DNA from: Alphaproteobacteria bacterium
GTDB taxonomy: Bacteria; Pseudomonadota; Alphaproteobacteria; Rs-D84
Direction: 5' to 3'
Assembly (NCBI GenBank): GCA_017503725.1
Contig: JAFVSL010000003.1
Span: 6,236 to 70,235 of the forward strand
Length of the DNA: 64,000 bases
The notes below the pieces were generated by a model that saw only the letters and a program-made list of their open reading frames with translations, was not told the DNA's origin and did no database searches. The first letter of the stretch is position 1. Every line of letters begins with the position of its first letter. Shown piece by piece: positions 17,870 to 46,853 of this stretch. The position numbers were made by a program, and so were the translations under genes.

Positions 17870-17959
17870 CAAAGTTCAAAGTGCATAGTGCAAAGTTCAA
17901 TTAATGAATACATAATACTTAGATAAATAAAAGTTTATTTAACAAAAACGTTTCAGATT

Positions 17960-18118: not shown

Positions 18119-18155
18119 TGTACTTCCTGCGATAAACTTTTATTTATATAAGCAA

Positions 18156-18184
18156 TTGCGCAAATGGAAACAATCGGTTATAAT
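18156..18184 (+). promoter_or_regulatory. sigma70-type promoter TTGCGC-N17-TATAAT of cassette 1
   Basis: -35 at 18156-18161 and -10 at 18179-18184 with 17-nt spacing. The same geometry (TTGCGT-N17-TATAAT) sits at the equivalent position of copy 2. Confidence 0.7.
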
Positions 18185-18190
18185 AATCGT

Positions 18191-18902: not shown

Positions 18903-18920
18903 ATAACAAGAGGCAGAATT

Positions 18921-19724
18921 ATGAATAAGAAATTTATAAACGCTTTTATATTTGTTTTATGCGCAAACACAGCGATAGCACGTTCTGTGACCCTGTGTGT
19001 CAATCCAGACATACTTAACACATCTGTGACAAATTGGACCATTGGCACGGGCATAATCCAAAATTCAGGGAGTGGATACATCAATTTTAAAGCAAGAGTT
19101 ACAATCAACGACGGTGCCAATTATTTTATGTATACTAACGTATTGATTGATTCAAGATGCGGCAAAGTTTTAGATACGAACGTGTACAATAAGGCTTTTA
19201 ATGAGGACGATTTCTTAAACGATGCACATACAGGCAACAGCTATTGTTTCTGTAAAATGGTACGCCCATTCGTAACCCCATATTTTGCAGCCACATATGG
19301 ACCGCAAACTTCGATCCCCTATGATAATTGCGTTAATAACTGCGCTTATTATTGTGCGCATACTGTTCCAAGAGACGGTTTTCCAAACTTCATACTGGGT
19401 CAGCTTTTCAATATGCCAAATTTTGGAACTGACTATATTTCTACAGATGCTGTAACGAGAGGCCAATGCCCAACGAATTATTTGCCTATCGAAAAGGACG
19501 GCGTTGGTTTTGAAACTGATTGTACAGACACCGGTGGCACAGTATACACTAACTCCGTATTTGACTATGCCACGGCAGTAACCAGTTGCTTTTCCTCCGA
19601 TTTAGTTCCTGGCGAACCTTGTGCGATGTTTTATTGGGGCGGATATGAAGGCTCTGACGCAAGTGGCTACTTTTCTATAAAATCTAAAATATGCAATGAA
19701 TTCCCAGCAGAAGGGCTGTTTTAA
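18921..19724 (+). CDS. secreted cysteine-rich protein, 'YC[WF]C' family with C-terminal G-x-Y-x-x-D-x-SG module (267 aa)
   Basis: Signal peptide MNKKFINAFIFVLCANTAIA. Core SYCFCKMVRPFVTPYFA...CVNNCAYYCA. The C-terminus CAMFYWGGYEGSDASGYFSIKSKIC resembles the C-termini of the 34976 ORF and the giant protein. Confidence 0.75.
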   Translation: MNKKFINAFIFVLCANTAIARSVTLCVNPDILNTSVTNWTIGTGIIQNSGSGYINFKARVTINDGANYFMYTNVLIDSRCGKVLDTNVYNKAFNEDDFLNDAHTGNSYCFCKMVRPFVTPYFAATYGPQTSIPYDNCVNNCAYYCAHTVPRDGFPNFILGQLFNMPNFGTDYISTDAVTRGQCPTNYLPIEKDGVGFETDCTDTGGTVYTNSVFDYATAVTSCFSSDLVPGEPCAMFYWGGYEGSDASGYFSIKSKICNEFPAEGLF

Positions 19725-21649: not shown

Positions 21650-21822
21650 AAATACAAAAGGGGGTTATTTTGTCGGAATTTTTCCACCGACGGAACCGAT
21701 TGTACTATTTTCTTTACAGATATGCAAGTTTATTTATCAAAACGATTGCACCACTCGGTATATCGTATACCGACGACACAGGAACATACGAATTTACAGA
21801 TGCGTGTACGATGAGCAACTAA
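21650..21822 (+). pseudogene. frameshifted relic of a cysteine-rich family gene (C-terminal module only)
   Basis: Frame 1 reads ...APLGISYTDDTGTYEFTDACTMSN*, against APAGESYTDDTGIYEFTDACAME* for the 34976 ORF. Upstream similarity (STDGTDCTIFF vs SSPSGDCIMYA) lies in a different frame. There is no start codon or signal peptide. Confidence 0.55.
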
Positions 21823-21848
21823 AAATCCCCCAATTGGGGGATTTTTTT
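21821..21848. terminator. bidirectional terminator
   Basis: aaaaatcccccaattgggggattttttt. Confidence 0.85.
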
Positions 21849-33625: not shown

Positions 33626-34933
33626 ATGTTCAAAAAAGAAAAAATCAAAGATTTACATTATTCTGTAAATGGCGTAATTTCTGCGGACGAATTGCAGAAA
33701 TCGGCCGACGAAATTCTGTTGGAATACGGTAAAAAGGTTAAAATGCCGGGATTCCGCACGGGCAAGGTTCCATTAAGCATCCTGCGCCAGAAATACAACG
33801 CATCCGCATACGGCGAGGCAATCGATAAATTGATGAACCGTGATCTGGAAACATATGTCGCAGACAAGAAAATTCGCCTGGCTGGCGCGCCAAAGGTTGA
33901 CCTGTCGGGCTGGACCGTTGGTCAAGATGCCGAATATTCAATGGAATTCGATATTTTGCCAACTTTGCCGGCAATTGATTTGGAAAAAATCACTGTAACC
34001 AAGAAGGTCGCAAAACTGGACGAGAAAGAAGTCGAAACCGCACTGGAAAACATTCGCAAATCTCGCAGCACGGCCGAAAAACAGGATGCAGAATACAAGG
34101 CCGCCGACGGTGACACCGCTGTTATCGACTTTACTGGTTTTATTGGAGACGAAGCATTCGAAGGTGGCGCAGCAACAAAGCATCACTTGATTTTGGGCTC
34201 TGGTTCGTTCATCCCGGGATTTGAAGATCAAATTATTGGTCACAAGGTTGGCGATGAATTTGATGTAAATGTCAAATTCCCAGAAAACTATCACGCTGAA
34301 AACTTGGCGGGCAAAGACGCACGTTTCGCGGTAAAAATCCACGAAATCCGTAAACATATCTTGCCGGAATTGAATGATGATTTGGCAAAACAGGTCGGCC
34401 AAGAATCTGTCGAGGCTTTGCGTGAACACATCCGCAAAATCATCAACGAACAGTATGACGAAGCGGCCAAACGCGATATGCGTAACGAATTGCTGGACGC
34501 CCTGGCGGATAAAGTCAAACTGGATTTGCCAGAAACATTGGTTGAACAAGAATACAATATGGCGAAATCTGAATTTGAACATCAGCATTCCCATTGTCAC
34601 GATGAAAAATGCGACCACAAATGGGATGAAAAACAAGAACACAAAGACGCCGAACGCCGCGTTAAATTAGGCCTGATATTGGCGGAATGGGGCACCCAGA
34701 ACAAGGTAGAGGTCACACGTGAAGACCTGCAACAGGCCATCTGGGCCGAGGCCGCACGCTATCCAGATCCAAAACAGGTTTTTGAATTCTATAACAAGAA
34801 TCAGAATGCTTTGGCAATGTTGCGCGGAATGATTTTCGAACGCAAGGCCCTGGATGCAATGTTGACACACGTCAAGACCAAAGAAAAAACGGTCCCAGCG
34901 GACGAATTGTTCAAACAGGCATCTGTAAGATAA
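33626..34933 (+). CDS. tig: trigger factor
   Basis: N-terminal ribosome-binding GFRTGKVP motif, central FKBP-type PPIase (FIPGFEDQIIGHKVGDEF) and a C-terminal arm domain. Promoter TTGCTT-N16-TATAAT about 50 nt upstream. Confidence 0.92.
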   Translation: MFKKEKIKDLHYSVNGVISADELQKSADEILLEYGKKVKMPGFRTGKVPLSILRQKYNASAYGEAIDKLMNRDLETYVADKKIRLAGAPKVDLSGWTVGQDAEYSMEFDILPTLPAIDLEKITVTKKVAKLDEKEVETALENIRKSRSTAEKQDAEYKAADGDTAVIDFTGFIGDEAFEGGAATKHHLILGSGSFIPGFEDQIIGHKVGDEFDVNVKFPENYHAENLAGKDARFAVKIHEIRKHILPELNDDLAKQVGQESVEALREHIRKIINEQYDEAAKRDMRNELLDALADKVKLDLPETLVEQEYNMAKSEFEHQHSHCHDEKCDHKWDEKQEHKDAERRVKLGLILAEWGTQNKVEVTREDLQQAIWAEAARYPDPKQVFEFYNKNQNALAMLRGMIFERKALDAMLTHVKTKEKTVPADELFKQASVR

Positions 34934-34941
34934 ATATAAAG

Positions 34942-34968
34942 AAAACGCGCCACATGGCGCGTTTTTTC
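34942..34968. terminator. bidirectional terminator (tig / cassette 2)
   Basis: aaaacgcgccacatggcgcgtttttt. Confidence 0.85.
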
Positions 34969-34975
34969 TTGCTCT

Positions 34976-35455
34976 TTATTCCATCGCACACGCATCTGTA
35001 AATTCATATATGCCGGTGTCATCGGTATACGACTCGCCCGCGGGCGCGTACATTATGCAATCCCCGGATGGGCTTGACACCAAACACGATTCCGCCGTGC
35101 CAATGGCGATTGTGCCACTGGGGCAACTGGTTGCAAGGGTGATATATGGCCTGTCAATCGCGATATATCCCGCTGGACAATCCGTACTGGGCACATTACC
35201 CAAAATACACACACCGGCGTCACCGCATTTGAATCCACTGGCACAGGGTGGCACACCGGTGTAAACCGTCAGTGTGCTACTGGTACAGGTCTGTCCCAGT
35301 GTTGCCGCCGCCACACAGGTTGCCAGTGATAGACTACTCGTTCGCAAACATACCCCAGAATCACATTGCGTACTGTATAAACAATTTTGACCATTTGCGA
35401 GCCCTGCAATCGCGGATAACGGCGCCAGAGACATTAAAAATATCAATCGCTTCAT
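34976..35455 (-). CDS. secreted cysteine-rich protein with C-terminal G-E-x-Y-x-D-D-T-G...C module (159 aa)
   Basis: ATG 35455 with an aaggg SD 8 nt upstream (the track ORF begins at GTG 35464). Signal peptide MKRLIFLMSLAPLSAIAG. 15 Cys in the mature part. C-terminus CIMYAPAGESYTDDTGIYEFTDACAME. Starts 11 nt after the stop of the upstream gene. Confidence 0.75.
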   Translation of the reverse strand: MKRLIFLMSLAPLSAIAGLANGQNCLYSTQCDSGVCLRTSSLSLATCVAAATLGQTCTSSTLTVYTGVPPCASGFKCGDAGVCILGNVPSTDCPAGYIAIDRPYITLATSCPSGTIAIGTAESCLVSSPSGDCIMYAPAGESYTDDTGIYEFTDACAME

Positions 35456-35466
35456 TCGCGCCACCC

Positions 35467-35916
35467 TTAGTTTGATATTGAGCTAAACAGCGCGGACCGG
35501 AACTCGGGATAGTACTGAGCGTGCGTCGCACAATTGCCCGAACAGTAGAACGCGCAATTACTGGCGGGCGTGTATATGTTGGTGTATACCCAAGACGAAA
35601 CGGCCGGTTCAACCATCTTGCACCAGCAATAAAAATTGACTTCACTTGAGGCGTCGCTTAGCGTTGGTAATGCGCCGTCTGAATATATTGCATAATCCGT
35701 ATCGCCCTTTACATTAGAACACGCCGAAACTCCCTTAATCGGGACGTTGGTACCATCGGTGGTACAAGTTACCTCCCATTCGGCCGTACCATTCCAGTTG
35801 ACTGGCGTTGATGTACACGTGGTGGTTGATGAATCCAATGCCACGCATTGTTGTACCGCCATTGCGGGCACGGCAAGCAACGTGCCGACTGCGGTTAAGG
35901 TTAAAAGTTTTTTCAT
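35467..35916 (-). CDS. secreted cysteine-rich protein, 'YC[WF]C' family (149 aa)
   Basis: ATG 35916 with a gggag SD (the track ORF begins 13 codons upstream). Signal peptide MKKLLTLTAVGTLLAVPAMA. Core FYCWCKMVEPAVSSWVYT...CAFYCSGNCA. Confidence 0.75.
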   Translation of the reverse strand: MKKLLTLTAVGTLLAVPAMAVQQCVALDSSTTTCTSTPVNWNGTAEWEVTCTTDGTNVPIKGVSACSNVKGDTDYAIYSDGALPTLSDASSEVNFYCWCKMVEPAVSSWVYTNIYTPASNCAFYCSGNCATHAQYYPEFRSALFSSISN

Positions 35917-36161
35917 ATGTATCACTCCCTTTCTTTGTTCTTCGCGAAAAAACAAAAACCACCGAAAACTTTCGAGTGGTCAGGAGGTTAGAAACAATCT
36001 TGTGAATTGTGTGCTTATTCAATATATTCGCAACCCTCCTGACACTAATGTGCTCAGGAGTTTTATTTCATCAAAACACGACACGCCGGCAATTTACCAT
36101 TGCGTCATCTTTTAATGCACAAGTCGGGTTTCTACACCCCATTATGGCAAATCGCCATAAC
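35917..36161 (-). promoter_or_regulatory. conserved ~245-nt 5' leader (candidate cis-regulatory RNA) of cassette 2
   Basis: Mirror of 18191-18422:
- palindrome TTATGGCGATTTGCCATAA (36142-36160)
- 23-codon uORF (36071-36142)
- CTCCTGA/TCAGGAG helix with a different loop
- the same 40-nt invariant core
- AACCTCCTG
- hairpin plus T-run (about 35949-35980). Confidence 0.6.
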
Positions 36162-36167
36162 ACACCA

Positions 36168-36196
36168 ATTATAACTAAATCTTTCCCCTTACGCAA
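36168..36196 (-). promoter_or_regulatory. sigma70-type promoter TTGCGT-N17-TATAAT of cassette 2
   Basis: -35 at 36191-36196 and -10 at 36168-36173 on the minus strand. Same spacing and position as in copy 1. Confidence 0.7.
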
Positions 36197-36454
36197 TTGC
36201 AATGATAAATAAAAGTTTATCGCAGGAAGTACGAACAGAATTTTTTGCAAAAAAATTCTGTCATCCCGTGGCTTGACCACGGGACCCAGGTCATATTTCT
36301 TTTTTTATTTGCTTTCACCTGGATTCCGGGGTCAAGCCCCGGAATGACAAAAACGTTAAACGTTTTTGTAAACTGATTACCCCACTAAACTTTTATTTAA
36401 CGAAGTAATATTATGTATGCCAACACTAATCACTAACCACTTACGGCTCACCAC

Positions 36455-36480
36455 TAAAAAATCCCCCAAACGGGGGATTT
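36455..36480 (-). terminator. rho-independent terminator after the giant gene
   Basis: The minus strand reads aaatcccccgtttgggggatttttt directly after the stop at 36484. Confidence 0.85.
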
Positions 36481-36483
36481 CCC

Positions 36484-39400
36484 TTACCAAGACATATATC
36501 CGGGGTTACATTTACGTTCGCACTTTTTCGTGTCTGGATTCCATATCATTGTTCCGGTTTCGTCTTCGTATTCTTCACCAACTGGACAAATTGGAACGCA
36601 CTCATTATTTTCAAGGTTATACAATTCTCCCTGGTACATACAGGCCGCAATCGTACATCCTTCAATATAACTGCTTGCCGCGTCTTGCCCCAGTACGCTT
36701 TTGGCATTGCGACAGCGTCCACATTGTTTGTTTGGTTCGTCTGATTCATATGAATCATTTGTATATCCGGGTTCGCACGACGTTGCGATACATTCGCCCC
36801 ACGTGCCGCGATTTTCATCCCATTCACGTGTTCCCGTACCGTGTTCAACCGAGCACACCTCTACATCCGGGACACAGGCATTTGATGAAACGTGATATCC
36901 ATCAACGCATTCTGTAATCTTGCAGATTCCAAATGCGCCCAACTTGTTGTCCCACGTCTGACTGGCCGCATATGCGTTTGGTGCCGTGCAAGTTTTTACG
37001 TCATCTGCGCACTGGTCGCCCTCTGGATGGAATCCTGTATGACATTTCGCCACCAGACAGTTTCCATTTGGTTTGTACGCGGTTGCATTGGCGCGTTCAC
37101 ATCTCTGACAACGACCATCAATCAATTCATAGTCTGGATTACAAGATGTTTCAACGCACGTCTCGTATCCCTTGATTGTCTGAATTTCGCACGGATTTCC
37201 CGTCTCAGACATTCCCTTGAATGTACAAACATTGTCGTACTGTACGGTGTCACTGTCGCGTATTGCCATACCGCCCAAGATTTCGTAATCTTCACACGTT
37301 GTATAGCATTGTTCAATCTTGGTTGAACCCGCACCGGACAATTTATGTGTGCCACCCGTTAATTCATCACAGGTCATTGGTACGCCATCTGGGGTACCGT
37401 CTAAATCAATATCCGACCCAGACATTGCATCACAAACACTGTTTTCTGGGCACAATTCACATTGTGATTTATCCCCCGCCAGATAGTATCTTGTATCACA
37501 TACCTGAATTTCACAAGTGTCTGTCATATCCGCACCCTGATAGTCGCGGCCAACCATTGTTGTGACGTTGATCGGCGCATCACAGTCGCCAAAGCATTGT
37601 CCCACATTGGTCGAACCCGCATCTGATTCTGGGTAACGCCCATCAAACAGCGCGCTACACACCTGTGGTTCAGCATTCGCGACACCGTCAAATCCTGTAC
37701 GTGTGGATTCATCACAAATACTGCCGGCTGGACAAATATCACACTGATTATTATTGATGTAATATTTTTCATCACACGTATCCAACATACACGCCGTGCA
37801 ATCGGACGAATAATCTTCTGCATTCGTGTTGTATCCACAGGTCTTAATTCCGCCACCGTGTGCAACAGAGCAGGGCATTTCAGTCATAAAGCACGCGGAT
37901 GCATCACTGCTGGTGTCTGATTCTGTTTGTCCCGCGCGACCGTCAAATGTTGCACAACCCTGGCGTGCTGTTGGGCGTCCCTCGTTACCCGCATCTGCAA
38001 CCGGCCCAAAGAAGCCATAGCCAACCTTGGTACAATCCGTATCGCCAATCGCATTCCAATAGTATCCTGGGTCACACTTCTGGAACATACGCGCACGACA
38101 TTCCGTGTATCCTTTGTTCTCGGGCGAATAGATACAGTATTGGAATCCAGAACCGTGATCTGATGTGAATGGATTTTCCGCCTTGAAGCACGATGTAGAT
38201 TCCGCAGCATTATCGACGTTTGTGTCACCACCGTCTGGACATGGCGTTCTGTTCAAACTGCCTGGTTCACTGTACGCATCATATCCAACCGCCGTACAAT
38301 CAATTGCCGCCGCATTTTCACGATAGTATCCACCCTGGCACGTTGTTATATACTTGTCACGACAATTGGTCGCATACTTCGCACTGCCGTCTGCATTGTC
38401 GGACGTGTAATTACATACCTGGGTACCCGCGCCGTATGTCGCGTTGTATTCAACGGTCTTGTAACATTCACCGGCATCATCTGCGGTCGTCAGTGTGCCC
38501 GTCAACCCATTTTCTGGACACTCATAACGTTTCAGGTCATCTGTACCACTGTAATGGTTTATACCAACCTCGACACAGTCTATACCAGATACATAATAGT
38601 ATCCCGCAACACATTTCTTGACCGAATGGTCGCGACAGGAGGCATCATATGCCTTTGTGTCTTCATCATAGTTACACGTTTGTGTCCCACTGGCCTTGCC
38701 GGTTGTGGACGTGTATGCCAACCCTTGCTTATAGCATACACCACTGTTGGTCGCGCTTGCGCCACCGGCCGATATGCCACCATCTGGGCAAATTTCGTGA
38801 CCGCCAACGACACCCGTATCTGTTGGGTATGTTCCGCCCGGACACCAGTGATCGGCTGCACAAACAACACAATCTCCGCCCCGGCCTGGGTAATAATATC
38901 CAGCCTCACAGACCGTGTCGCCTTCGGACCAAACAACATTTGCGGTTGTATCGTTTGTTGTCACACGCAGGGCCGCATTTGTATTTTGCAAAGTACCCGC
39001 CGCATCAATAATCATAACGTCGCCGACGCTGTAACCCGCAAAGTTGTATCCAGATTTACCGGGCAGGGCACTCGTATCTATTGTTGTTAATGCCTTGTTT
39101 GCCGCTACATCTTCGAACCAGCCCACCGTGTATTTCAAATATACTGGTTTTTGTGTTGCGTTTTCTGTGGCATCACTTGCCACCAATTCAATTTTGAATA
39201 CATCTGGTTCCCAAATGGCGTACAGTTTTGTATCGCTACCGTTGGCCGAGATGTTTTCAGATGTTGCGACATTCGCGGCATAGCACGCACCCGAACCGTT
39301 CGCATTGGTGCACCATTTGTTCGCAGACACATATCCCGCACGTGCCAGTCCATCCGTCGCTGGTAACTTACAGGCGCCACTGTCAAATGTGCATTCGACA

Positions 39401-42400
39401 TATGCTGTAACATCGCCTGTGCCCTGGTTTTTATCCAGCGTAACCGTATATTTATTCGCGACACATTGCGGATTTGTGCCGTTTTTCGCAGTATAACCCG
39501 CATTGCACGTAATTGTATAAGAACAGGCTGCGTATTCAGCACTGGCCGTGTTGTATGGCGCGTTGGCTTCGTCTGGTGTTACAGTCTTGCTGTTTGTGAT
39601 GTCTGACGTTGTCAAAGAACAGGCACTGTAACAATCCGCCTCTGTTGCACGTGGCGCATTAGAACCGATTCCGTCATTTGCCGCACCGGTTTCGCCTGGA
39701 CAGGCGTGCGCGGCCATACTTTCTGTGTCCTCGGTCCCGTTTTCTACAACCGGTGCCGGACTGTAATATCCATCTGTTACCGGCGTACATGCGTTGCCAA
39801 CACCGCTATAGTAATAGCCCGCATCACACGTCAGCGCAATAGAGTCACAGTTTGTTGTGTATATTGCACTATTACCGCTACCACTTGTATACCAACAATC
39901 CCACTTTGCGGTACCAAAGTTGAATGTCATATCACCCCCATCGGTTGTAACCTTGCGACAGTCTGATATGCTGTCCGCACCAGCGGTGGTTGTTGCACCA
40001 TTCGCCGGACAAGTTTCCATACAACCGGTCGAGCCTTCGTTAATTTCGCCACTGCCCGGGCAATATTTTCCCAATTCACAGCGTGTACGCACACCGTTGT
40101 TGTAATAATATCCGGCCTCGCACGCAACCATATTCTGGTCCCAAATCGCATACAGGGTAATTTCACCACCATCCGACAGCAGGTTTTTAATACTGCCGTT
40201 TGCGACAATGGTTTTTCCTTTGCCGTCTTTCTGGGTATTCCAGACACTGAATGTCTTGTTCGGCATTTCAATTGTATCAGCGGCTGCACATTCCATATCA
40301 TACACGCATGTAACATCCGCAACATTCAGGCTTCCTGCATCTGTCGGATCAAAATGCACCGTAAATGTTGTTGGTGTCCAGTTTGCAACAACGGTTATGT
40401 GACCTGTTGTGCCCGCAACAATTTCATTGTTTTCAACCTTGTCACCGGTCCAACCATCAAAGATATAGCCCGTTTTTACAGGATCCTTTAATGCAATTGG
40501 CGTATCTGATATTGTATAAGCATCCGGATTTTCGGCATTGTTGGTACCGCCGTCCAAATCATATGTAATCACATACGAATCAGAAGTCCAGTTCGCAGTC
40601 AGAACCATATCGCCGATTGAACCATTTATAATCTGTGTAACCGTATTGCCATTTGCGTCGGTCCACTTGCTGAAAGTAAACCCTGTTTTTTCTGGTTTCT
40701 TTAAAACGATAGTGTTTGTTTCAACAGTGTACTCATCTGGGTTAGATTCACCGGTCTTATAAGTCCCGCCATTAAGATTGTATGTAATCTTATAGGTAAC
40801 AGGTGTCCACTTTGCCCAGAATTCTTTGTTGCCGATTGTGCCTGCTGAAATCTCGGTAACACTTGTGTTGAAACCGCTGTCGCTGAACCAGCCACCAAAA
40901 TCATAACCACGTTTTGTTGGATTGGATAACACAAATGCATCTTCAATTGTATATGTTTCTGGGTTTGAATTGCCCGCATAATATCCGCCATTCAAGTTGT
41001 ATTTGATGGTATACGAATTTGGCGTCCACTGTGCAACAAGCGTTATGTCTGCCGTATACGTGTTATTTGCAGGCAACAGACCATCTGTGCCGATAACAAG
41101 TGTACCCTTGCTATCATAATAGCCCATAAATGTATAACCATTGCGTGTAGGCAATACAATCGATTCCAAGGACGCACCACCGGCGGCATTGTCATACCAG
41201 CCAACCGTATATGTTTGATAAACGGTGCCCTGACCACCAACGCCGTTATTATCATTCAGCGTAACCGCATATGTGCCCGGTGTACATGATGCAACATCCG
41301 ATGCCGTCATTGGTGAACCATACAATGTTTTTCTATAACCATATTGAACCGCAGACGTCGTATTTGCAACATATCCAGCATCACAAACAAATGTAAACGA
41401 ACAGAAAGAGGTTGGTGTACAAACCGTCTGTGGATACCAACGATATCCCTTGTTAGGCAATGTACCTTCTGTACACGTGGCGTGTTCTGGACAGTGGTTT
41501 ATATTGCCAGACACTTCTCCTTGCTCATTTATAACATAATCGTTCGCATAATCACACGTTGGTGCACAGGCATCATAACAAGCATTTGGACCATTCTGTA
41601 TCGAAGCCATAGAAGAATAGTTATAAAAGTCAACGGGTTCCAAACTCTCGCACGTTGCGCTGCAGGTTGGATATTCTTCAGACATGTAATAGCCCGATTT
41701 ACACACGGTTTGTGAAGAATATAAATCAACCGGACACGCTGTGCTAGATACAACACACTCTTCTGAATCGTAATACTGTACGCCGGACAACTTTGTGTCA
41801 GAAAGAAATTCGCATTTTAAGAAATTTCCTGGACAACTGCTTGGTACTACACAGCTTATCTCACAAGTCTTGTAACACTGTTGTTCGGCGTCGCCGGCAA
41901 CACAAATATTGTAAGTGCCCTGATATTCGGCGCCCAGCGCAGAACACGACGTTGTACAACTTGAGCATACGCCATTGCTTGGGTATGTGCCACTTGCGCA
42001 ACCACAGGCACCATCTTCAGTGCTGTTGCACGCATTCCATTGTGCGGTAAAGGTCAGACTGGCCGTACAGGTGCCCTTTGTGACTGATGTGACCGTCGCA
42101 CCCGTGTCATCCTTCCATCCTGCAAATGTATAACCCGCGCGTGCAATGTTATCAGCCGTCGGCAGGGCAAACGTATCCGTATCCGCATTACACGACAACA
42201 TATAGTCACCGCTCCATTTTGTGTCGTCTGGGGTTACGTATGTGATGGTCTTTGCCCCTTCGGCAACATATTCTGCGGTAAATGTTTTTCCACTTGTATA
42301 AGTCCATAGAAAATCTGTTCCCGCGGTGTGAATTGTTGTCCCGTCATTCCAGTGGCTGAAATCATAACCAACTGGTTCGGTGCAAGTATTTGTCGCCGGT

Positions 42401-45400
42401 GCAAAGCCCGTATTATAGATTGCCGTTGCATTTGCCGGTGCGGTACCCGTTCCGTCGCCACAATTGTATGTAACGGTATAGGACTTTGGAGTACATACAC
42501 AGGACAAGCCGGTGCATTTTGGTGTTTCGTAACCCGTGGCGCATTCCGCACTTGCCACACAGGTGTTATTAGAAACACTGACCGAACACGTTGATACACC
42601 GGTACCCTTGGTGCAATCTGCACACTTGGTCCATTTTGCGGTGAACGACATTTCGGATACACACGTGCCCGCCGCAACAGATGTTGCCTTTTCCCCCGTT
42701 GCGTCGTTGTACCATCCATCAAATGTATGACCAGCGCGTGTAATTGTTGGCAATGTGATATCGCCCGACATAACGTTACATTCTGTGTCACTGACCGTTG
42801 TTCCACCGTTTTCATTAAATGTAACATTGTTCATACCGCCAACAGCCCACTGGGCATATAGTGTCGTTGCCTTTGCAATATCCCAGGTGCGTGCCGATTG
42901 ACCCACCGCAGTATAGTACTGTGTGCCACCCGTCTTGGCATCAAACCAACCTGTGAACACGTATCCAGCCTTTGTTGGTGCGGTCGCACTGATTGCCGGC
43001 ATTGTGCTGTCATACGTTGCTAAAACATCTGCTGACTGACCGCCTGTACCACCATTTGCGTCAAACGATATTGTGTACTGGTTCGCCGTCTTACAGGCAT
43101 AGTATGTGCTGTTTGACGGTGTTGTAAACGTGCTTACCTTAGCGGTACAGGATTGGGATGTTCCCCAACCGCCTGTAAATGTATATCCGGTCTGTGTCAG
43201 GACAGATGCATCACCAAAATTACAATCTGCACCCTGGTAACAGGTCACAGATGCGCCAAGCGAACCGGCCCCGCCATTTTTATCCAGCGTTATCACGCGA
43301 TAACAGTCGGATGATGAATCGTGGTCTGCCGCTGTTGTGCCGGTGATGGTATATCCAGTCGTACAACTGTTTGCGCAACTGGTTGCAGACGAACCGTTTG
43401 TGATCTGGTATTTACCTGTTCCACATACAACGCACGACAGGGTTGCGCCATTCACATATGCACCGGCTTTGGCTGTAACAGATGTAACAGTTGGCACACA
43501 CGCGGTCTCGGTTGTAATGCCATAAAAGTCTTTATAATTGCAAGACGCCCATGTCGCACTGTGACAGTTTGTTGGGATATTGCCCTTGGTAACCGTTACA
43601 AGATTATAACAATCTTCTTTTGCATCAGCCCCCAGTTCACTGTCCGGATATTCCGTCGGACAGGTCCCAGTAATCCCCTGATTAACAGAGGTGCTATATG
43701 TGTATTCACCACCACCACAGTAACTGTCTTCTGGACAGGATTCACACTGTGTTTTTAACATTGGCAAATATTCGCCTTTGTCACACGTATATTTGTTGGC
43801 GGTCCATTGTGCGGCCAGTGTCGTGTTCCCCACCGTTGTATAGGTGTATTCGGTGTTCGCCTTTGGGTACTTGCCGTTCCAACCCGTAAATGTATATCCC
43901 GTACGGGCACACATAGCCCCTGGCTGGGTTGTGAATTTATCGTCAAATGTCACCGTTTGTGTATTGCTGTATGGGGTTTGAGTATTGCCACCATTACAAT
44001 TATAAGTGACTGTATATTCATTTGGGGTTAATTTACCATAGACCGTGATATTTCCCGTGCCAGATGTCTTTGTAATTCTGTTGTTGTATGCGGCATCATT
44101 AAACCAACCGCCAAACGTATATCCGGCTTTGGATGCGTCTGTGAACGTCACAGGCGATTCGACCGTATAGGTTGTAGCATTGCTGTGTGTCGCACCATCA
44201 GCGATTTTATATGTAATTGTATATGATACTGCATCACCCCAAATTGCATATAGCGAAACGCTGCCATTATTATTGGTTGTCAGGTTGGAAACGCTTTCTT
44301 TGTCTGAATATTCAACATTGCCATCACTGCTGCGTGCCCATCCCTGGAATTTTAGACCGTCTTTTGTAAACTTGTTTTCGCTCAGATTTTGTGCAACACC
44401 ATATGTAAATGACTGGCTGCTCATTGTGCCCGAACCGGTATTTGCATTAAACGTAACCGTATATTTATTTGGTGTAGCGGAACATTTGCTTACGTTGTTA
44501 CTGGACGTGCCACAGGTTGCTGTATTATATCCTGCCGACGCGGTTGCTGTTGCGGTACCACAGATGCCCAACGGTGCACTTGGTGTACAGGATGCAACAC
44601 CTGTTCCCCGGTCACAGGTACACTCTGCGCCCCAGACTGCGTACAAATTAACCTTGGCGCCGTCTACACTGCTCAGGTTTGATACACTTTGTTTGTTGGC
44701 GTATTTGGCACTGCTTGCGCCACTGGTTTCGGCCCAACCCAAGAACTGTTTCGCGCCATTTGTGAATCCATTTGTGGACAAGGTGTCCGACTTGTTGTAT
44801 GTGTGCGTGCTGGTTGCGGTTGTTCCAGAACCACCATTTGCATTATATACAATCGTATATGTAATCGGATCACAACTTGGGTTATACGCTCCGGAATTTG
44901 AGATGTCCTTGTACCCGGTTGCACAGTTGGTTGCATAAGAACACTGGTTATTCACGACACTTAACACACAGGTCGCACCCGTTCCCTCTGCACACGCTGT
45001 ACAGGCGCTCCACACCGCATACAGTGTCTTTTCACCACTTGTGATAATATTTTTGATACTTGCGCCCGGCGCGTATTCGGCCACCGTTGCATTGTTTGTC
45101 GATGCCCAACCTTGGAAAGTACTGTTGGTCTTCAACATTGTACCCTGGCTTGTCGCCAAACAGGTCCCATTATAAGAACAGTTCTGCGAACTGACCGCTG
45201 GTACGCCAGAGGTTGCGCCGTTTGTATCATATTTAATGGTTATCGAATTTGCAGAACACGCATAATTATAAGATGTAGAACCAACCGTGCCCGTGTATGT
45301 CCCGCTGGTCCCATAGCCATTGTTACAAGTAACTGTACATTTTGGTGCGTTTGTCGTTGTGTTCGCTGGTTTCGCGGTTCCATTATCAGCACTGCAAGTT

Positions 45401-46608
45401 GGTGTTTCCCAAACTGCGTATACAGTTGTGGTCGCCTTGAATGTCAAAGCAGTGCTGCCACTTGTGGCGTCGTTTGATGTGGCCCATCCTTTGAATATCT
45501 TTGCGCCATTGCTAAGCCCGCAAGAAGATGCGTTCCACGATGGTAATGTGCAGGCCTTATTATAGTAACACGTTGCCGAACCATCAGATGTGCTGGATGT
45601 ACCACCACAGGTGCCCGACCCACCATTTTTATTTAATGTAATTGTGAAATAACAGTCATTTTCTGTTTTTGCGCTTGTTGCACTGGTACCCGCCGGACAT
45701 ATTGTCAGACCCGCATCAACACCGCTGTTTGACCCGGCTACGCCCTTGCAATAATTGCCGGCCGTACACTGTGCACATTTCGCTGTATCTGCATCCCAAT
45801 ATGTACCGGCCTCACAATCATATGTGCTACCACCCCAAATCGCATAAAGTTTTACATTGTCTGCCGGTGTGTATTCGCCGGTGCTGCCGCTTGTGGCGGT
45901 GCTTGATGTGGCCCAGCCATTAAAGATATATCCGGCGCGTTCAGGGGTTGGCATTGTTACGGGTACTCCCGTCCATTGGGCATACAACGTTAAATTTTTT
46001 GAGGTTGCTTTGATTTGTGTTGTTCCGGCGTCTGTTATATATCCAGTTGCACCAACAAGTTGTGTGCCACCCGTTGCCGCAGTGAAATATCCATTAAATG
46101 TGTACGTGGCAGTTTGGGATGTTGTGGCAACTGTACCACCGTTTGCATCATATGTAATTGTATATGAACGCTTTGGTACGGTAATTGGGTTCGCAGATGT
46201 GGTCATAACCTTTGTGCGCGCGGCGTCCAAATACACATTTGTTCCATATTTCCCATAGATTTTAGTTGTGCCGGCGGTTGTCGCACTTGTGTTATTCAAA
46301 GTAATAGTTGTTTCAATTAGCGAACAAGCTGTTGTTGTGGTAGTGGTTGCCCCCGTTGTGGTGCCACCAACACTGTATCCGGTTGAACACGTACAGGCCG
46401 ACGCCGAATTTTCATCGGTCGTAGAGGAATTTTCTGGACACGCCACACAGGAATTTCCGACCTCGGTTCCATTCAGATAATACCCTGCATTACAGGACGT
46501 ATACATCTTGATATCGTCACAGATGTATCCCGCCGCAAACGAATTCGTTGTGAAAACGACACCCGCAAATAATACAAAAAACCTCAGGAAACAGCGTATT
46601 TTTCCCAT
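36484..46608 (-). CDS. giant secreted cysteine-rich mosaic protein (3,374 aa): Listeria/Bacteroides-type B-repeat modules plus CxxGYY cysteine-rich repeats; putative surface adhesin/host-interaction protein
   Basis: Uninterrupted 10.1-kb frame. ATG 46608 with a gagaggaag SD. Signal peptide MGKIRCFLRFFVLFAGVVFTTNSFA.
- About 19 modules resemble YT[VI]T[FY]xxNGG....GY.F.GW......[LF][YT]A.W (Flg_new/InlB B-repeat-like), spanning roughly 40140-46100.
- A Cys-rich insert lies at about 41350-42030.
- The C-terminal region 36484-40140 is dominated by C-x-[AGP]-G-Y-Y...C...G-x-Y repeats resembling ephrin-receptor-like/GCC2_GCC3/VSP-type modules. Confidence 0.85.
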   Translation of the reverse strand: MGKIRCFLRFFVLFAGVVFTTNSFAAGYICDDIKMYTSCNAGYYLNGTEVGNSCVACPENSSTTDENSASACTCSTGYSVGGTTTGATTTTTTACSLIETTITLNNTSATTAGTTKIYGKYGTNVYLDAARTKVMTTSANPITVPKRSYTITYDANGGTVATTSQTATYTFNGYFTAATGGTQLVGATGYITDAGTTQIKATSKNLTLYAQWTGVPVTMPTPERAGYIFNGWATSSTATSGSTGEYTPADNVKLYAIWGGSTYDCEAGTYWDADTAKCAQCTAGNYCKGVAGSNSGVDAGLTICPAGTSATSAKTENDCYFTITLNKNGGSGTCGGTSSTSDGSATCYYNKACTLPSWNASSCGLSNGAKIFKGWATSNDATSGSTALTFKATTTVYAVWETPTCSADNGTAKPANTTTNAPKCTVTCNNGYGTSGTYTGTVGSTSYNYACSANSITIKYDTNGATSGVPAVSSQNCSYNGTCLATSQGTMLKTNSTFQGWASTNNATVAEYAPGASIKNIITSGEKTLYAVWSACTACAEGTGATCVLSVVNNQCSYATNCATGYKDISNSGAYNPSCDPITYTIVYNANGGSGTTATSTHTYNKSDTLSTNGFTNGAKQFLGWAETSGASSAKYANKQSVSNLSSVDGAKVNLYAVWGAECTCDRGTGVASCTPSAPLGICGTATATASAGYNTATCGTSSNNVSKCSATPNKYTVTFNANTGSGTMSSQSFTYGVAQNLSENKFTKDGLKFQGWARSSDGNVEYSDKESVSNLTTNNNGSVSLYAIWGDAVSYTITYKIADGATHSNATTYTVESPVTFTDASKAGYTFGGWFNDAAYNNRITKTSGTGNITVYGKLTPNEYTVTYNCNGGNTQTPYSNTQTVTFDDKFTTQPGAMCARTGYTFTGWNGKYPKANTEYTYTTVGNTTLAAQWTANKYTCDKGEYLPMLKTQCESCPEDSYCGGGEYTYSTSVNQGITGTCPTEYPDSELGADAKEDCYNLVTVTKGNIPTNCHSATWASCNYKDFYGITTETACVPTVTSVTAKAGAYVNGATLSCVVCGTGKYQITNGSSATSCANSCTTGYTITGTTAADHDSSSDCYRVITLDKNGGAGSLGASVTCYQGADCNFGDASVLTQTGYTFTGGWGTSQSCTAKVSTFTTPSNSTYYACKTANQYTISFDANGGTGGQSADVLATYDSTMPAISATAPTKAGYVFTGWFDAKTGGTQYYTAVGQSARTWDIAKATTLYAQWAVGGMNNVTFNENGGTTVSDTECNVMSGDITLPTITRAGHTFDGWYNDATGEKATSVAAGTCVSEMSFTAKWTKCADCTKGTGVSTCSVSVSNNTCVASAECATGYETPKCTGLSCVCTPKSYTVTYNCGDGTGTAPANATAIYNTGFAPATNTCTEPVGYDFSHWNDGTTIHTAGTDFLWTYTSGKTFTAEYVAEGAKTITYVTPDDTKWSGDYMLSCNADTDTFALPTADNIARAGYTFAGWKDDTGATVTSVTKGTCTASLTFTAQWNACNSTEDGACGCASGTYPSNGVCSSCTTSCSALGAEYQGTYNICVAGDAEQQCYKTCEISCVVPSSCPGNFLKCEFLSDTKLSGVQYYDSEECVVSSTACPVDLYSSQTVCKSGYYMSEEYPTCSATCESLEPVDFYNYSSMASIQNGPNACYDACAPTCDYANDYVINEQGEVSGNINHCPEHATCTEGTLPNKGYRWYPQTVCTPTSFCSFTFVCDAGYVANTTSAVQYGYRKTLYGSPMTASDVASCTPGTYAVTLNDNNGVGGQGTVYQTYTVGWYDNAAGGASLESIVLPTRNGYTFMGYYDSKGTLVIGTDGLLPANNTYTADITLVAQWTPNSYTIKYNLNGGYYAGNSNPETYTIEDAFVLSNPTKRGYDFGGWFSDSGFNTSVTEISAGTIGNKEFWAKWTPVTYKITYNLNGGTYKTGESNPDEYTVETNTIVLKKPEKTGFTFSKWTDANGNTVTQIINGSIGDMVLTANWTSDSYVITYDLDGGTNNAENPDAYTISDTPIALKDPVKTGYIFDGWTGDKVENNEIVAGTTGHITVVANWTPTTFTVHFDPTDAGSLNVADVTCVYDMECAAADTIEMPNKTFSVWNTQKDGKGKTIVANGSIKNLLSDGGEITLYAIWDQNMVACEAGYYYNNGVRTRCELGKYCPGSGEINEGSTGCMETCPANGATTTAGADSISDCRKVTTDGGDMTFNFGTAKWDCWYTSGSGNSAIYTTNCDSIALTCDAGYYYSGVGNACTPVTDGYYSPAPVVENGTEDTESMAAHACPGETGAANDGIGSNAPRATEADCYSACSLTTSDITNSKTVTPDEANAPYNTASAEYAACSYTITCNAGYTAKNGTNPQCVANKYTVTLDKNQGTGDVTAYVECTFDSGACKLPATDGLARAGYVSANKWCTNANGSGACYAANVATSENISANGSDTKLYAIWEPDVFKIELVASDATENATQKPVYLKYTVGWFEDVAANKALTTIDTSALPGKSGYNFAGYSVGDVMIIDAAGTLQNTNAALRVTTNDTTANVVWSEGDTVCEAGYYYPGRGGDCVVCAADHWCPGGTYPTDTGVVGGHEICPDGGISAGGASATNSGVCYKQGLAYTSTTGKASGTQTCNYDEDTKAYDASCRDHSVKKCVAGYYYVSGIDCVEVGINHYSGTDDLKRYECPENGLTGTLTTADDAGECYKTVEYNATYGAGTQVCNYTSDNADGSAKYATNCRDKYITTCQGGYYRENAAAIDCTAVGYDAYSEPGSLNRTPCPDGGDTNVDNAAESTSCFKAENPFTSDHGSGFQYCIYSPENKGYTECRARMFQKCDPGYYWNAIGDTDCTKVGYGFFGPVADAGNEGRPTARQGCATFDGRAGQTESDTSSDASACFMTEMPCSVAHGGGIKTCGYNTNAEDYSSDCTACMLDTCDEKYYINNNQCDICPAGSICDESTRTGFDGVANAEPQVCSALFDGRYPESDAGSTNVGQCFGDCDAPINVTTMVGRDYQGADMTDTCEIQVCDTRYYLAGDKSQCELCPENSVCDAMSGSDIDLDGTPDGVPMTCDELTGGTHKLSGAGSTKIEQCYTTCEDYEILGGMAIRDSDTVQYDNVCTFKGMSETGNPCEIQTIKGYETCVETSCNPDYELIDGRCQRCERANATAYKPNGNCLVAKCHTGFHPEGDQCADDVKTCTAPNAYAASQTWDNKLGAFGICKITECVDGYHVSSNACVPDVEVCSVEHGTGTREWDENRGTWGECIATSCEPGYTNDSYESDEPNKQCGRCRNAKSVLGQDAASSYIEGCTIAACMYQGELYNLENNECVPICPVGEEYEDETGTMIWNPDTKKCERKCNPGYMSW

Positions 46609-46741
46609 ATCTTCCTCTCTTTTGTCTTTTATGGTAGTAAAAATGCGCCATATCGCGCAAGGGGAAATATTAAAAATCAATTTAAAAAATATATTTGACG
46701 CATTTTTGGTGCTTGACTTTTTATAAAAGTGTATTTTTTTG

Positions 46742-46772
46742 TAAAAAAAGTCCCAGCCGGATGGCTGGGACT
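46742..46772 (-). terminator. rho-independent terminator after tRNA-Met
   Basis: gtcccagcc-ggat-ggctgggac hairpin followed (minus strand) by a T-run. Confidence 0.8.
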
Positions 46773-46777
46773 AATCC

Positions 46778-46853
46778 TGGTGGGTTAGGTAGGACTTGAA
46801 CCCACGACCAAAGCGTTATGAGCGCTCCGCTCTAACCACTGAGCTACTAACCC
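46778..46853 (-). tRNA. tRNA with CAT anticodon (elongator Met or Ile2-lysidine type), CCA encoded
   Basis: Minus strand: acceptor GGGTTAG/CTAACCC, D arm TAGC..., anticodon stem GAGCG/CGCTT with loop CTCATAA, T arm GTGGG-TTCAAGT-CCTAC, then ACCA. It lacks the three G-C pairs of initiator tRNA. TTGCAC-N16-TATAAT promoter just upstream (about 46865-46893). Confidence 0.85.

What the first reader, a model, noticed from the sequence alone, without database searches (positions are those of the whole stretch)
34976..46853. Candidate new system: a giant cysteine-rich secreted protein genetically and sequence-linked to leader-controlled small cysteine-rich partner proteins
An accessory block sits between two housekeeping anchors, tig and a CAT-anticodon tRNA. 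It holds a 3,374-aa secreted Cys-rich gene, its terminator, and then a promoter plus long conserved leader driving two small secreted Cys-rich genes (149 and 159 aa).

A second copy of the same leader-plus-two-gene cassette lies inverted 17.5 kb away (18156-19724). A decayed third member lies at 21650-21822.

The small proteins and the giant protein end with a related module:
- giant: CPVGEEYEDETGTMIWNPDTKKC
- 159-aa: APAGESYTDDTGIYEFTDAC
- 267-aa: WGGYEGSDASGYFSIKSKIC

The combination points to one functional unit, such as surface or host-interaction machinery, or a scaffold with cognate accessory subunits. The elements are a shared module, shared secretion signals, a shared dedicated regulatory leader and physical linkage. 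I do not recognise it as any described system.
Basis: partly seen in the sequence, partly recalled or inferred. Interest (0 to 1): 0.88.

Follow-up and report, generated by a model that had tools for sequence, protein, structure and literature searches.

The report
New multicopy leader RNA for secreted proteins
The giant protein and the small cysteine-rich proteins are probably not one machine; the shared 'leader' is an undescribed, strongly structured RNA switch placed in front of many secreted-protein genes in tiny-genome gut bacteria (Candidatus Enterousia).

Summary
The sequence features are real, except that the claimed shared C-terminal module is not significant.

**Giant gene.** It encodes a 3,374-aa secreted protein with 15 Listeria-Bacteroides (Flg_new) repeat matches and 185 cysteines. 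It has its own terminator and no leader.

**Leader.** The conserved leader has two parts:
- The distal part is a palindromic, MITE-like repeat.
- The proximal ~220 nt is a sigma-70-like promoter plus a structured RNA that ends in an intrinsic terminator about 35 nt before the start codon.

**Distribution.** An exact-core scan found this RNA in 46 assemblies, nearly all Enterousia-type Alphaproteobacteria MAGs. A covariance model found 131 copies, at least 15 in one genome.

**Structure.** 97.7% of cells pair and 30 of 38 pairs show compensatory change. No Rfam family matches.

**Cargo.** Downstream genes vary: the S1+S2 pair (29 operons), other cysteine-rich secreted proteins, XRE regulators and outer-membrane barrels.

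**Link to the giant.**
- The S2 profile scores 2.2 bits on the giant.
- None of 37 loci with relatives of the giant's C-terminal domain has S1 or S2, and only one has a leader within 4 kb.
- Adjacency to a cassette recurs in three lineages.

**Verdict.** This is a new cis-regulatory RNA family, probably a terminator/antiterminator switch with an unknown signal. The giant-plus-partner "system" is not supported.

The parts
36484..46608 (-). Giant gene: 3,374-aa secreted protein with Listeria-Bacteroides (Flg_new) repeats, cysteine-rich modules and a conserved ~340-aa C-terminal domain
   Evidence: ORF and translation. Pfam PF09479, 15 matched stretches, E 3e-101. NCBIfam TIGR02543, E 2e-55. 185 Cys. 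The C-terminal domain is 43-55% identical in L030 and L103.
36463..36477 (-). Intrinsic-terminator-like hairpin (TCCCCCGTTTGGGGG followed by a T-run) after the giant gene; a generic genome-wide terminator type
36242..36366 (.). Palindromic MITE-like repeat upstream of the cassette promoter. It is not part of the conserved leader RNA.
   Evidence: It gives a sub-threshold match to Rfam WsnRNA46 on both strands (48.8 and 40.9 bits; gathering score 65.3). The same element lies about 100 nt upstream of leaders in L020, L034 and L060.
36168..36196 (-). Sigma-70-like promoter of cassette B: -35 TTGCGT (36191-36196), 17-nt spacer, -10 TATAAT (36168-36173)
   Evidence: Sequence. The TTGC..TATAAT positions are conserved across 92 leaders.
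35949..36167 (-). Structured leader RNA, copy B. Elements: P1 36142-36160; 'barcode' helix 36129-36134 with 35989-35994; P3 36113-36117 with 36069-36073; P4 36054-36060 with the central strand 36035-36044; invariant core 36011-36036; P5 35995-36009; 3' copy CCUCCUGACC 35978-35987; terminator 35957-35981 plus U-tail
   Evidence: Covariance-model hit, 185 bits, E 6e-52. Element coordinates. MFE -77.3 kcal/mol, z -7.2. Covariation.
35467..35916 (-). S1: 149-aa secreted cysteine-rich protein (YCWCKM domain)
   Evidence: 189 homologs, those named by a source all hypothetical proteins of Alphaproteobacteria MAGs. AlphaFold2 pLDDT 81.5 with no PDB fold match. No Pfam or NCBIfam family.
34976..35455 (-). 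S2: 159-aa secreted protein with a colipase-N-like domain and a ~65-aa C-terminal cysteine module; its start is 11 nt after the S1 stop
   Evidence: 84 homologs, mostly the 90-aa module-only form. PF01114 at 29.7 bits against a cut-off of 27.
34940..34967 (.). Bidirectional terminator hairpin between tig and S2
17939..18184 (+). Copy A upstream region: palindromic repeat followed by the promoter (-35 18156-18161, -10 18179-18184)
18185..18400 (+). Structured leader RNA, copy A
   Evidence: Covariance-model hit, 171 bits, E 6e-48.
18423..19724 (+). Copy A cargo: a 159-aa S1-family protein (18423-18902) and a 267-aa protein whose N-terminal half is S1-like (18921-19724)
   Evidence: S1 profile E 5e-12 and 2e-9. 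Pairwise comparisons.
21751..21846 (+). Decayed S2-module 3' end (..APLGISYTDDTGTYEFTDACTMSN*) with a terminator; no leader is present
33626..34933 (+). tig (trigger factor), flanking anchor
46778..46853 (-). tRNA-Met (CAT), flanking anchor, 170 nt upstream of the giant gene's ATG

Best explanation
The interval holds two separate transcription units.

**Unit 1: the giant gene.** It encodes a secreted or surface protein of the adhesin type, with Listeria-Bacteroides repeats and cysteine-rich modules. It has its own terminator.

**Unit 2: the cassette.** It consists of a sigma-70-like promoter, a ~210-nt structured leader RNA, and the S1-S2 gene pair.

**The leader family.** The leader belongs to an undescribed RNA family confined, as far as sampled, to Candidatus Enterousia and its Rs-D84 relatives. 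These are gut Alphaproteobacteria with genomes under 1 Mb. The RNA occurs many times per genome, always in the same orientation, 25-45 nt upstream of the ribosome-binding site of genes for mostly secreted, disulfide-rich proteins.

**Shown**
- The fold: P1, a long-range 'barcode' helix, P3, P4, P5 and a terminator, all with compensatory changes.
- An invariant 26-nt unpaired core.
- Promoter and U-tract conservation.
- Diverse cargo genes.

**Inferred**
- The RNA acts as a transcription attenuator. The thermodynamically favoured fold contains the terminator, so the default state is OFF.
- The central strand GGUCAGGAGG can pair with the upstream CUCCUGA (P4). It can also pair with the downstream CCUCCUGACC, which overlaps the terminator's 5' strand and would act as an antiterminator.
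- An unknown signal (a small ligand, protein or RNA) would shift this balance. That would switch on the whole set of secreted-protein genes together.

S1 and S2 are a conserved co-translated pair of unknown biochemical function. The giant protein is a neighbour, not a component.
For: **Family size and distribution**
- 99 exact-core loci in 46 species-level assemblies. All but one are labelled Alphaproteobacteria, Enterousia, 'uncultured Rickettsiales' or 'uncultured proteobacterium'.
- 131 covariance-model hits in 831 kb.

**Structure**
- On a MAFFT alignment not fitted to the structure, 94.6% of cells pair against 80.5% in shuffles. There are 257 double-change cells against 79. Slid controls give 30-62%.
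- On the model-fitted alignment, 97.7% of cells pair, 30 of 38 pairs show compensatory change, and 921 cells changed on both sides. The barcode helix is 99.9% paired, and four of its six positions carry three to five pair types.
- RNAalifold found the same helices independently.
- The single-sequence MFE reproduces them, with z -7.2.

**Promoter and cis arrangement**
- The -35/-10 consensus is conserved.
- 119 of 131 leaders have an ORF of at least 50 aa starting within about 130 nt downstream on the same strand. Of these, 88 of 119 look like they have signal peptides. 81 of 112 complete ones have at least 6 Cys.
- The cargo falls into distinct families.

**Switch**
- The terminator fold is the MFE in 96 of 100 leaders.
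- The alternative central:3' helix is at least 9 contiguous bp in 97 of 98 leaders. P4 is at least 7 bp in 95 of 98. Both are preserved across the two sequence types, UCAGGAG and UUGGAG.

**No known family**
- Rfam E-value scan of the window leader and Rfam gathering scans of the window and 18 loci give nothing.
- No paper holds both 'Rs-D84' and 'riboswitch'.

**Independence of the giant**
-.
Against: - There are no transcript data, so the promoter, terminator and read-through are all inferred from sequence.
- The antiterminator conformer is a median 10 kcal/mol less stable than the terminator fold. It needs a strong effector or kinetic control, or it may not be the operating switch.
- The support for the alternative helix rests largely on two sequence types. 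That may represent only one or a few evolutionary events.
- The model-fitted alignment leans towards the structure, although the MAFFT alignment agrees.
- About ten leaders precede XRE regulators that lack signal peptides, so the regulon is not purely a secretome.
- Giant-cassette adjacency recurs in three lineages.
- The organisms behind the 37 reverse-test loci are unidentified. Some may lack the RNA altogether.
Confidence: 0.7

Rival explanations
1. One reading: the giant protein and the leader-controlled small cysteine-rich proteins form one functional unit, such as a scaffold with cognate accessory subunits or a surface/host-interaction machine.
For: - A giant-like 3' end lies directly next to a leader cassette in the window and L074, in L030 and in L103. 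The flanking genes and orientations differ between these loci.
- Leader-driven proteins L083, L010 and L045 share the giant's ~70-aa cysteine module (BLASTP E 5e-12 for L083). L083 and L010 also align to its Flg_new repeat region, and the L083 protein reaches Pfam's Flg_new threshold. L083 also carries an S1 domain, seen in its sequence.
- A C-terminal motif [DN]xxGx[YFM]x[FIVW] is enriched in leader-driven cysteine-rich proteins (21 of 131 against 6 of 530 control ORFs). The giant has a look-alike, DETGTMIW.
Against: - The giant has no leader and has its own terminator.
- The S2 profile scores 2.2 bits on the giant.
- Of 37 loci with relatives of the giant's C-terminal domain, none has S1 or S2, and one has a leader 3.5 kb away.
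- L001, L003 and about 100 other leader loci have no giant.
- L015 (tig 91% identical) and L088 carry cassettes beside tig without a giant in view.
Confidence: 0.12
2. The ~210-nt RNA is mainly a stand-alone multicopy small RNA that is promoter-driven, terminated and acts in trans, for example through its CCUCC anti-Shine-Dalgarno-like strand. It would not be a cis-acting switch. The downstream genes would be expressed only by leak-through.
For: - It has its own promoter and a strong terminator.
- The terminator fold is the MFE in 96 of 100 copies, and the antiterminator costs about 10 kcal/mol.
- From general knowledge, CCUCC-type motifs are typical of alphaproteobacterial trans-acting sRNAs.
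Against: - Orientation and spacing to the next start codon are fixed in 119 of 131 copies.
- Only about 25-45 A-rich nt separate the U-tract from the ribosome-binding site, which leaves no room for another promoter.
- The CCUCC strand is base-paired in the conserved fold.
Confidence: 0.13
3. The conservation is at the DNA level. The leader would be a mobile or recombining promoter cassette, or a protein operator, spread by duplication or gene conversion among paralogous surface-protein genes as in antigenic-variation families. It would have no RNA-structure function.
For: - The element is multicopy and portable, and sits in front of unrelated cargo.
- Cassettes differ at the same tig-adjacent site in relatives.
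- A MITE-like palindrome accompanies several copies.
- The 26-nt core is invariant.
Against: - Hundreds of compensatory double changes preserve six helices, while sequence identity in those helices is low.
- Gene conversion would homogenise the helices rather than produce covariation.
Confidence: 0.05

Closest known systems
Terminator/antiterminator riboswitches that occur in many copies per genome in front of surface and secreted-protein genes, such as c-di-GMP-I (GEMM) (comparison from general knowledge)
   Same: - A promoter-proximal structured 5' leader that ends in an intrinsic terminator.
- A three-strand alternative pairing.
- Many copies per genome, in front of diverse surface, secreted and regulator genes.
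   Different: - No sequence or structure match to any of the 4,227 Rfam families.
- The fold is larger, about 200 nt with 5-6 helices.
- The ligand is unknown.
- It is confined to Enterousia-type (Rs-D84) MAGs as sampled.
Protein- or RNA-dependent antitermination leaders: ops/JUMPstart-RfaH, LoaP leaders, EAR and put RNAs (from general knowledge)
   Same: A conserved leader element shared by many surface and secretion operons, with a terminator to be overcome.
   Different: - The cargo operons here are only 1-2 short genes, so processive antitermination is not obviously needed.
- No dedicated NusG paralog or other factor was looked for or found.
Listeria-Bacteroides repeat (Flg_new / TIGR02543, InlB B-repeat) giant surface proteins
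   Same: The giant protein has 15 Pfam Flg_new matches and a signal peptide. Homologs are named 'InlB B-repeat-containing protein'.
   Different: - It has additional ~70-aa cysteine-rich modules and a conserved 340-aa cysteine-rich C-terminal domain with no family assignment.
- It has no LRR internalin domain. The InlA and InlH models score far below their cut-offs.
Colipase / Dickkopf-type small disulfide-rich domains
   Same: S2 residues 17-51 match PF01114 (Colipase N-terminal domain) at 29.7 bits, just above the 27-bit cut-off. Some homologs also hit PF02740.
   Different: - The context is bacterial and periplasmic or secreted.
- The match is short.
- The AlphaFold2 model of S2 is poor (pLDDT 47).
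- Most family members lack this domain entirely and are the 90-aa form.
WsnRNA46 (Wolbachia sRNA 46) and rickettsial palindromic repeats
   Same: The distal 'leader' segment 36242-36366 is a long palindrome that matches this model on both strands.
   Different: - The match is below the gathering score (48.8 against 65.3 bits).
- It is a separate repeat upstream of the promoter, absent from most leader loci.

Membership tests
Any Rfam 15 RNA family (for the leader) | Covariance-model score at or above the family gathering threshold | tested here: not met
   The gathering scan of the window gives only tmRNA and tRNAs. The E-value scan of 35900-36500 gives only noise over 35949-36167. The gathering scan of 18 leader loci gives only tRNAs.
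Structured cis-regulatory leader (attenuator or riboswitch-like) | Conserved secondary structure supported by compensatory base changes | tested here: met
   94.6% of cells pair on the MAFFT alignment and 97.7% on the model alignment. 30 of 38 pairs show double changes. Shuffle and slide controls are far lower.
Structured cis-regulatory leader (attenuator or riboswitch-like) | Fixed position and orientation between a promoter and the regulated ORF | tested here: met
   TTGC..TATAAT is conserved directly upstream of P1. 119 of 131 leaders have an ORF starting within about 130 nt downstream on the same strand.
Structured cis-regulatory leader (attenuator or riboswitch-like) | Intrinsic terminator with a mutually exclusive alternative pairing | tested here: met
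   The terminator stem covaries (CCAC/GUGG, CCGU/ACGG, CCGC/GCGG) and carries a U-run. The alternative helix of at least 9 bp overlaps the terminator's 5' strand in 97 of 98 leaders. The alternative conformer costs a median 10 kcal/mol.
Riboswitch (strict sense) | Direct, selective binding of a small-molecule ligand that changes the fold | not testable with these tools
   This needs in-line probing or ITC with candidate ligands. Only the invariant unpaired 26-nt core hints at a binding site.
Listeria-Bacteroides repeat proteins (PF09479 / TIGR02543) | Repeat matches above the curated cut-off | tested here: met
   The giant scores 331.9 bits against a cut-off of 27, with 15 stretches. For TIGR02543 it scores 184.6 bits against 20.95.
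Class 1 internalins (InlA, InlH) | Whole-protein score above the NCBIfam cut-off (LRR domain plus B-repeats) | tested here: not met
   58-73 bits against cut-offs of 1,050-1,600. Only the repeat region matches.
   None of 37 loci with relatives of the giant's C-terminal domain has S1 or S2, and one has a leader. 4 of 104 S1- or leader-core-anchored loci hold a giant-like C-terminus.
   The S2-module HMM against the giant gives a best domain of 2.2 bits and a full-sequence score of -118.
Colipase N-terminal domain (PF01114), for S2 | Score above the gathering threshold | tested here: met
   29.7 bits against 27, E 5e-7, residues 17-51. The match is marginal, and the fold is not confirmed (pLDDT 47).

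The most novel reading that the evidence does not exclude
The leader is a new riboswitch class. It could instead be the target of a dedicated RNA-binding regulator. It would sense a host- or partner-derived signal and switch on, in one step, the whole repertoire of disulfide-rich secreted and surface proteins of an obligately partner-dependent gut bacterium with a genome under 1 Mb. In effect it would be a single RNA 'master switch' for a symbiont's effector set. The hypervariable barcode helix might tune each copy.
Probability: 0.3. Interest if true: 0.85.

Novelty: new variant of a known kind. Interest (0 to 1): 0.68.

Why it matters
Candidatus Enterousia (order Rs-D84) is widespread in animal and human guts. 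Its genomes are 0.75-1.0 Mb, and it is thought to live off other cells, yet nothing is known about how it interacts with partners (PMC12306168).

A 220-nt RNA repeated at least 15 times in such a small genome marks out a coherent, co-regulated set of secreted cysteine-rich proteins, outer-membrane proteins and small regulators. That set is a ready-made list of candidate interaction factors, and the RNA is a concrete, testable regulatory element.

For RNA biology it adds a large, well-supported orphan leader family with a clear expression platform and an invariant core. That makes it a good candidate for ligand hunting.

It also corrects the original idea. The giant adhesin-like protein should be studied separately from the S1/S2 pair.

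Tried and rejected
- **S2-module profile against the giant.** Not significant. The BLASTP hits of 90-aa S2 proteins to giant 2589-2645 (E about 2e-4 per query, 206 queries, no SEG) were not reproduced by the profile (-2.2 bits) and were dropped.
- **Leader peptide.** A small ORF beginning at the ATG of AUGGGGUGU was rejected. The ATG is not conserved (GUG, UUG or GCG in other copies), and downstream changes are compensatory at the RNA level.
- **Distal 'leader' as part of the RNA.** Rejected. It is a palindromic repeat absent from L001 and L003.
- **Shared terminator hairpin as a system-specific element.** Rejected. It is generic.
- **AlphaFold2 of S2.** pLDDT 47, unusable, so no fold search was run.
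- **Foldseek of the confident S1 model against the PDB.** No match (best E 0.76, TM below 0.25).
- **NCBIfam for all the small proteins.** Nothing above cut-off. A weak MerP hit on S1 falls on the signal peptide only.
- **Column-based counting of the alternative helix.** Abandoned because the two sequence types differ by a 1-nt deletion on each strand. Replaced by per-sequence helix-length counts.
- **Locus-tag adjacency test for giant homologs.** Failed because nearly all database hits are unnamed fragments.
- **First MAFFT run.** Timed out.
Full report
**1. What is in the interval**

The window comes from an alphaproteobacterium. It carries a permuted alpha-type tmRNA at 54083-54463 and has about 45% GC.

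- tig (33626-34933, +) and tRNA-Met(CAT) (46778-46853, -) bracket the block.
- On the minus strand lies a 3,374-aa ORF (36484-46608). It has a signal-peptide-like start and 185 cysteines.
  - Pfam finds 15 Flg_new (Listeria-Bacteroides repeat) stretches, E 3e-101.
  - NCBIfam finds TIGR02543. The internalin models fall far below their cut-offs.
- A hairpin plus T-run follows 7 nt after the stop codon.
- Downstream on the same strand come an upstream region of about 460 nt, then S1 (149 aa, 35467-35916) and S2 (159 aa, 34976-35455), separated by 11 nt.
- A bidirectional terminator then abuts tig.

**2. The 'leader' has two unrelated parts**

The two upstream regions are 79% identical overall. 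The cargo proteins are far less alike:

| Comparison | Result |
|---|---|
| S1 vs the 159-aa copy-A protein | 37% identity over 35 aa |
| S2 vs the 267-aa protein | E 0.013 |

- *Distal part (36242-36366).* This is a long palindrome. It matches Rfam WsnRNA46 below threshold on both strands. It is missing from homologous cassettes elsewhere.
- *Proximal part (about 220 nt).* This is conserved across genomes even where the S1 proteins are only about 59% identical. It contains:
  - a TTGCGT-17-TATAAT promoter;
  - a structured segment;
  - a CCAC..GUGG hairpin with a U-run, about 35 nt before the GGGAG ribosome-binding site.

**3. The proximal part is a large, new RNA family**

- Scanning one genome per species (185,579 species) for the 25-nt core gave 99 loci in 46 assemblies.
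  - Nearly all are labelled Alphaproteobacteria, Candidatus Enterousia or 'uncultured Rickettsiales'. Two are labelled 'uncultured proteobacterium'.
  - One is labelled Bacteroides fragilis and is probably a mis-binned contig.
- A covariance model (R1, 222 positions, 38 pairs) was built from 44 diverse copies.
  - It finds exactly two copies in the window and none upstream of the giant gene.
  - It finds 131 copies in 831 kb of fetched loci.
  - At least 15 of these are in MAG SIG48, which is nearly identical to the window (tig 99%, giant C-terminus 97%).
- Enterousia genomes are 0.75-1.0 Mb (PMC12306168).

**4. Structure**

| Measure | MAFFT alignment, not structure-fitted | Model-fitted alignment, 131 sequences |
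|---|---|---|
| Cells that pair | 94.6% (80.5% in shuffles; 30-62% when partners are slid) | 97.7% |
| Cells changed on both sides | 257 (79 in shuffles) | 921 |
| Pairs with compensatory change | 23 of 38 | 30 of 38 |

The helices are:
- P1, a hairpin directly after the start site, with four to six pair types per position;
- a 6-bp long-range 'barcode' helix (UnnnnA with UnnnnA), 99.9% paired, in which four of the six positions carry three to five pair types;
- P3, which often encloses a GC hairpin followed by a U-run;
- P4 (CUCCUGA/UCAGGAG);
- P5 (CAAU/AUUG);
- the terminator.

An invariant GGGUUGCGAAUAUAUUGAAUAAGCAC lies unpaired between P4 and P5.

- RNAalifold finds the same helices unaided.
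- The window copy alone folds into them: -77.3 kcal/mol, z -7.2.
- A short local stem (GGGG/CCCN) may make the barcode helix a pseudoknot. GAGG always co-occurs with CCU (12 of 12 copies).
- No Rfam family matches. No paper links Rs-D84 with a riboswitch.

**5. How it probably works (inferred)**

- The terminator-containing fold is the MFE in 96 of 100 leaders.
- The 3' strand of P4 (GGUCAGGAGG) is also perfectly complementary to a downstream CCUCCUGACC. The last four bases of that strand begin the terminator stem.
  - This alternative helix is at least 9 contiguous bp in 97 of 98 leaders.
  - It is preserved in both sequence types: UCAGGAG with CUCCUGA, and UUGGAG with CUCCAA. Both partner strands carry the same change.
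- This is the classic three-strand terminator/antiterminator layout.
- The antiterminator costs a median 10 kcal/mol. The default state is therefore OFF, and an effector or kinetic control is needed.
- Nothing here identifies the signal.

**6. What it controls**

- 119 of 131 leaders have an ORF on the same strand starting within about 130 nt.
- 88 of 119 look like they have signal peptides. 81 of 112 complete ones have at least 6 Cys.
- The first genes fall into these groups:

| Group | Number of first genes |
|---|---|
| S1 family (29 followed by an S2-module gene) | 42 |
| Second cysteine-rich family (143-272 aa, 11-24 Cys) | 29 |
| XRE HTH regulators | 10 |
| Small cysteine-rich proteins | 8 |
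| ~300-aa secreted proteins | 6 |
| OMP beta-barrels | 2 |
| Eighteen smaller clusters (four pairs, fourteen singletons) | 22 |

- The XRE regulators checked by eye sit behind short 'type II' leaders.
- S1 has a confident AlphaFold2 model (pLDDT 81.5) with no PDB fold match.
- S2 is mostly a 90-aa form: a signal peptide plus a ~65-aa module. The window's S2 adds a marginal colipase-N-like domain.

**7. Is the giant part of it?**

*Against*
- The giant has no leader and has its own terminator.
- The S2-module profile scores 2.2 bits on the flagged C-terminal segment.
- Among 104 S1- or leader-core-anchored loci, only L074, L030 and L103 hold a giant-like C-terminus.
- Among 37 metagenome loci encoding relatives of the giant's conserved 340-aa C-terminal domain (36-55% identity), none has S1 or S2. 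One has a leader, 3.5 kb away.
- L015 (tig 91% identical) has a cassette divergent from tig and no giant within 8 kb. L088 has a different cargo at the tig site.

*For some relationship*
- The three adjacencies occur in different gene contexts and orientations.
- Leader-driven proteins L083, L010 and L045 carry the giant's ~70-aa cysteine module. L083 and L010 also align to its Flg_new repeat region. L083 also has an S1 domain.
- An S2-like C-terminal motif is enriched among leader cargo: 21 of 131 against 6 of 530 controls.

The simplest reading is a shared pool of shuffled secreted-protein modules, with cassette turnover at certain sites. It does not look like a dedicated giant-plus-partner system.

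A proper within-clade denominator is therefore missing.

**8. Verdict**

The module similarity to the giant is not.
It is wrong, on present evidence, about the giant.
- The notable result is the leader itself: a new, strongly supported, multicopy cis-regulatory RNA family of reduced-genome gut symbionts. It is most likely a default-off transcription attenuator for a secreted-protein regulon, and its signal is unknown.

Noticed in passing
window 36242-36366 and 17939-18100; L020 6185-6204, L034 6449-6468, L060 5494-5513: A palindromic MITE-like element (sub-threshold WsnRNA46 match on both strands) lies about 100 nt upstream of a leader promoter in all five places where its 20-nt core was found. 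It may act as an insulator or terminator, or mark the mobile boundary of cassettes.
   Followed up: partly
L084, L079, L091, L099, L027, L092, L058, L052, L094, L102 (leaders of the short 'type II' form GGUUGGAGG / CCUCCAACC): A shorter leader variant without the P3 insert precedes small XRE-family HTH regulators (PF01381 in the one tested, L084; 72-114 aa, no signal peptide) rather than secreted proteins. A few other type II leaders (e.g. L007, L009, L062) instead precede ~300-aa secreted proteins.
   Followed up: partly
Leader P3 loop, e.g. L017 4812-5022, L033 6034-6250; the window copy B equivalent lies within 36074-36112: Many leaders carry an internal GC-rich hairpin followed by a U-run (GGCGCGCC..GGCGUGUUUUUU) inside P3. 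It looks like a second, upstream terminator or a pause site.
   Followed up: no
L083 (439-aa ORF downstream of the leader at 2147-2370, -) and L010 (407-aa ORF downstream of the leader at 1264-1488, -): These leader-driven proteins align both to the giant's ~70-aa cysteine module and to its Flg_new repeat region. L083 also has an S1-type domain and reaches Pfam's Flg_new threshold. This is evidence of domain shuffling among the secreted proteins.
   Followed up: partly
L015 3610-6300; L088 2827-5053; window 33626-36167: The tig-adjacent site carries a leader cassette in three relatives, but the cargo and orientation differ. This suggests cassette turnover at a preferred site.
   Followed up: partly
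window 21853-22323 (-): A 156-aa ORF next to the S2 remnant has a lysine-rich repeat N-terminus and a metallothionein-like CGCDKGCPCGGNCECKK stretch. It also has an EF-hand-like DVNNDGCVDKSEF motif. It was not analysed.
   Followed up: no
window 7835-7854, 19727-19746, 21824-21843, 36460-36479; 25 matches in 23 fetched loci: The bidirectional terminator hairpin AATCCCCC-N4-GGGGGATT is reused genome-wide, including between a cold-shock-like gene and a DnaK/Hsp70-like ORF. It is not specific to the cassettes.
   Followed up: yes
L091 (CAVGNU010000007.1): A contig labelled Bacteroides fragilis carries two leaders and an XRE gene like those of the Enterousia MAGs. It is probably a mis-binned contig.
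   Followed up: no
window 54083-54463 (-) and 46938-48221 (+): The window holds a permuted alphaproteobacterial tmRNA with tag AANDNVRLAMAA. It also holds a PIF1-like helicase gene directly beyond the tRNA-Met anchor.
   Followed up: no
P0208, P0209, P0217, P0221, P0227 (339-345 aa): The giant's conserved 340-aa C-terminal cysteine-rich domain appears in databases as proteins of about 340 aa that cover the whole query. These could be stand-alone genes or gene-call fragments of giant genes.
   Followed up: no
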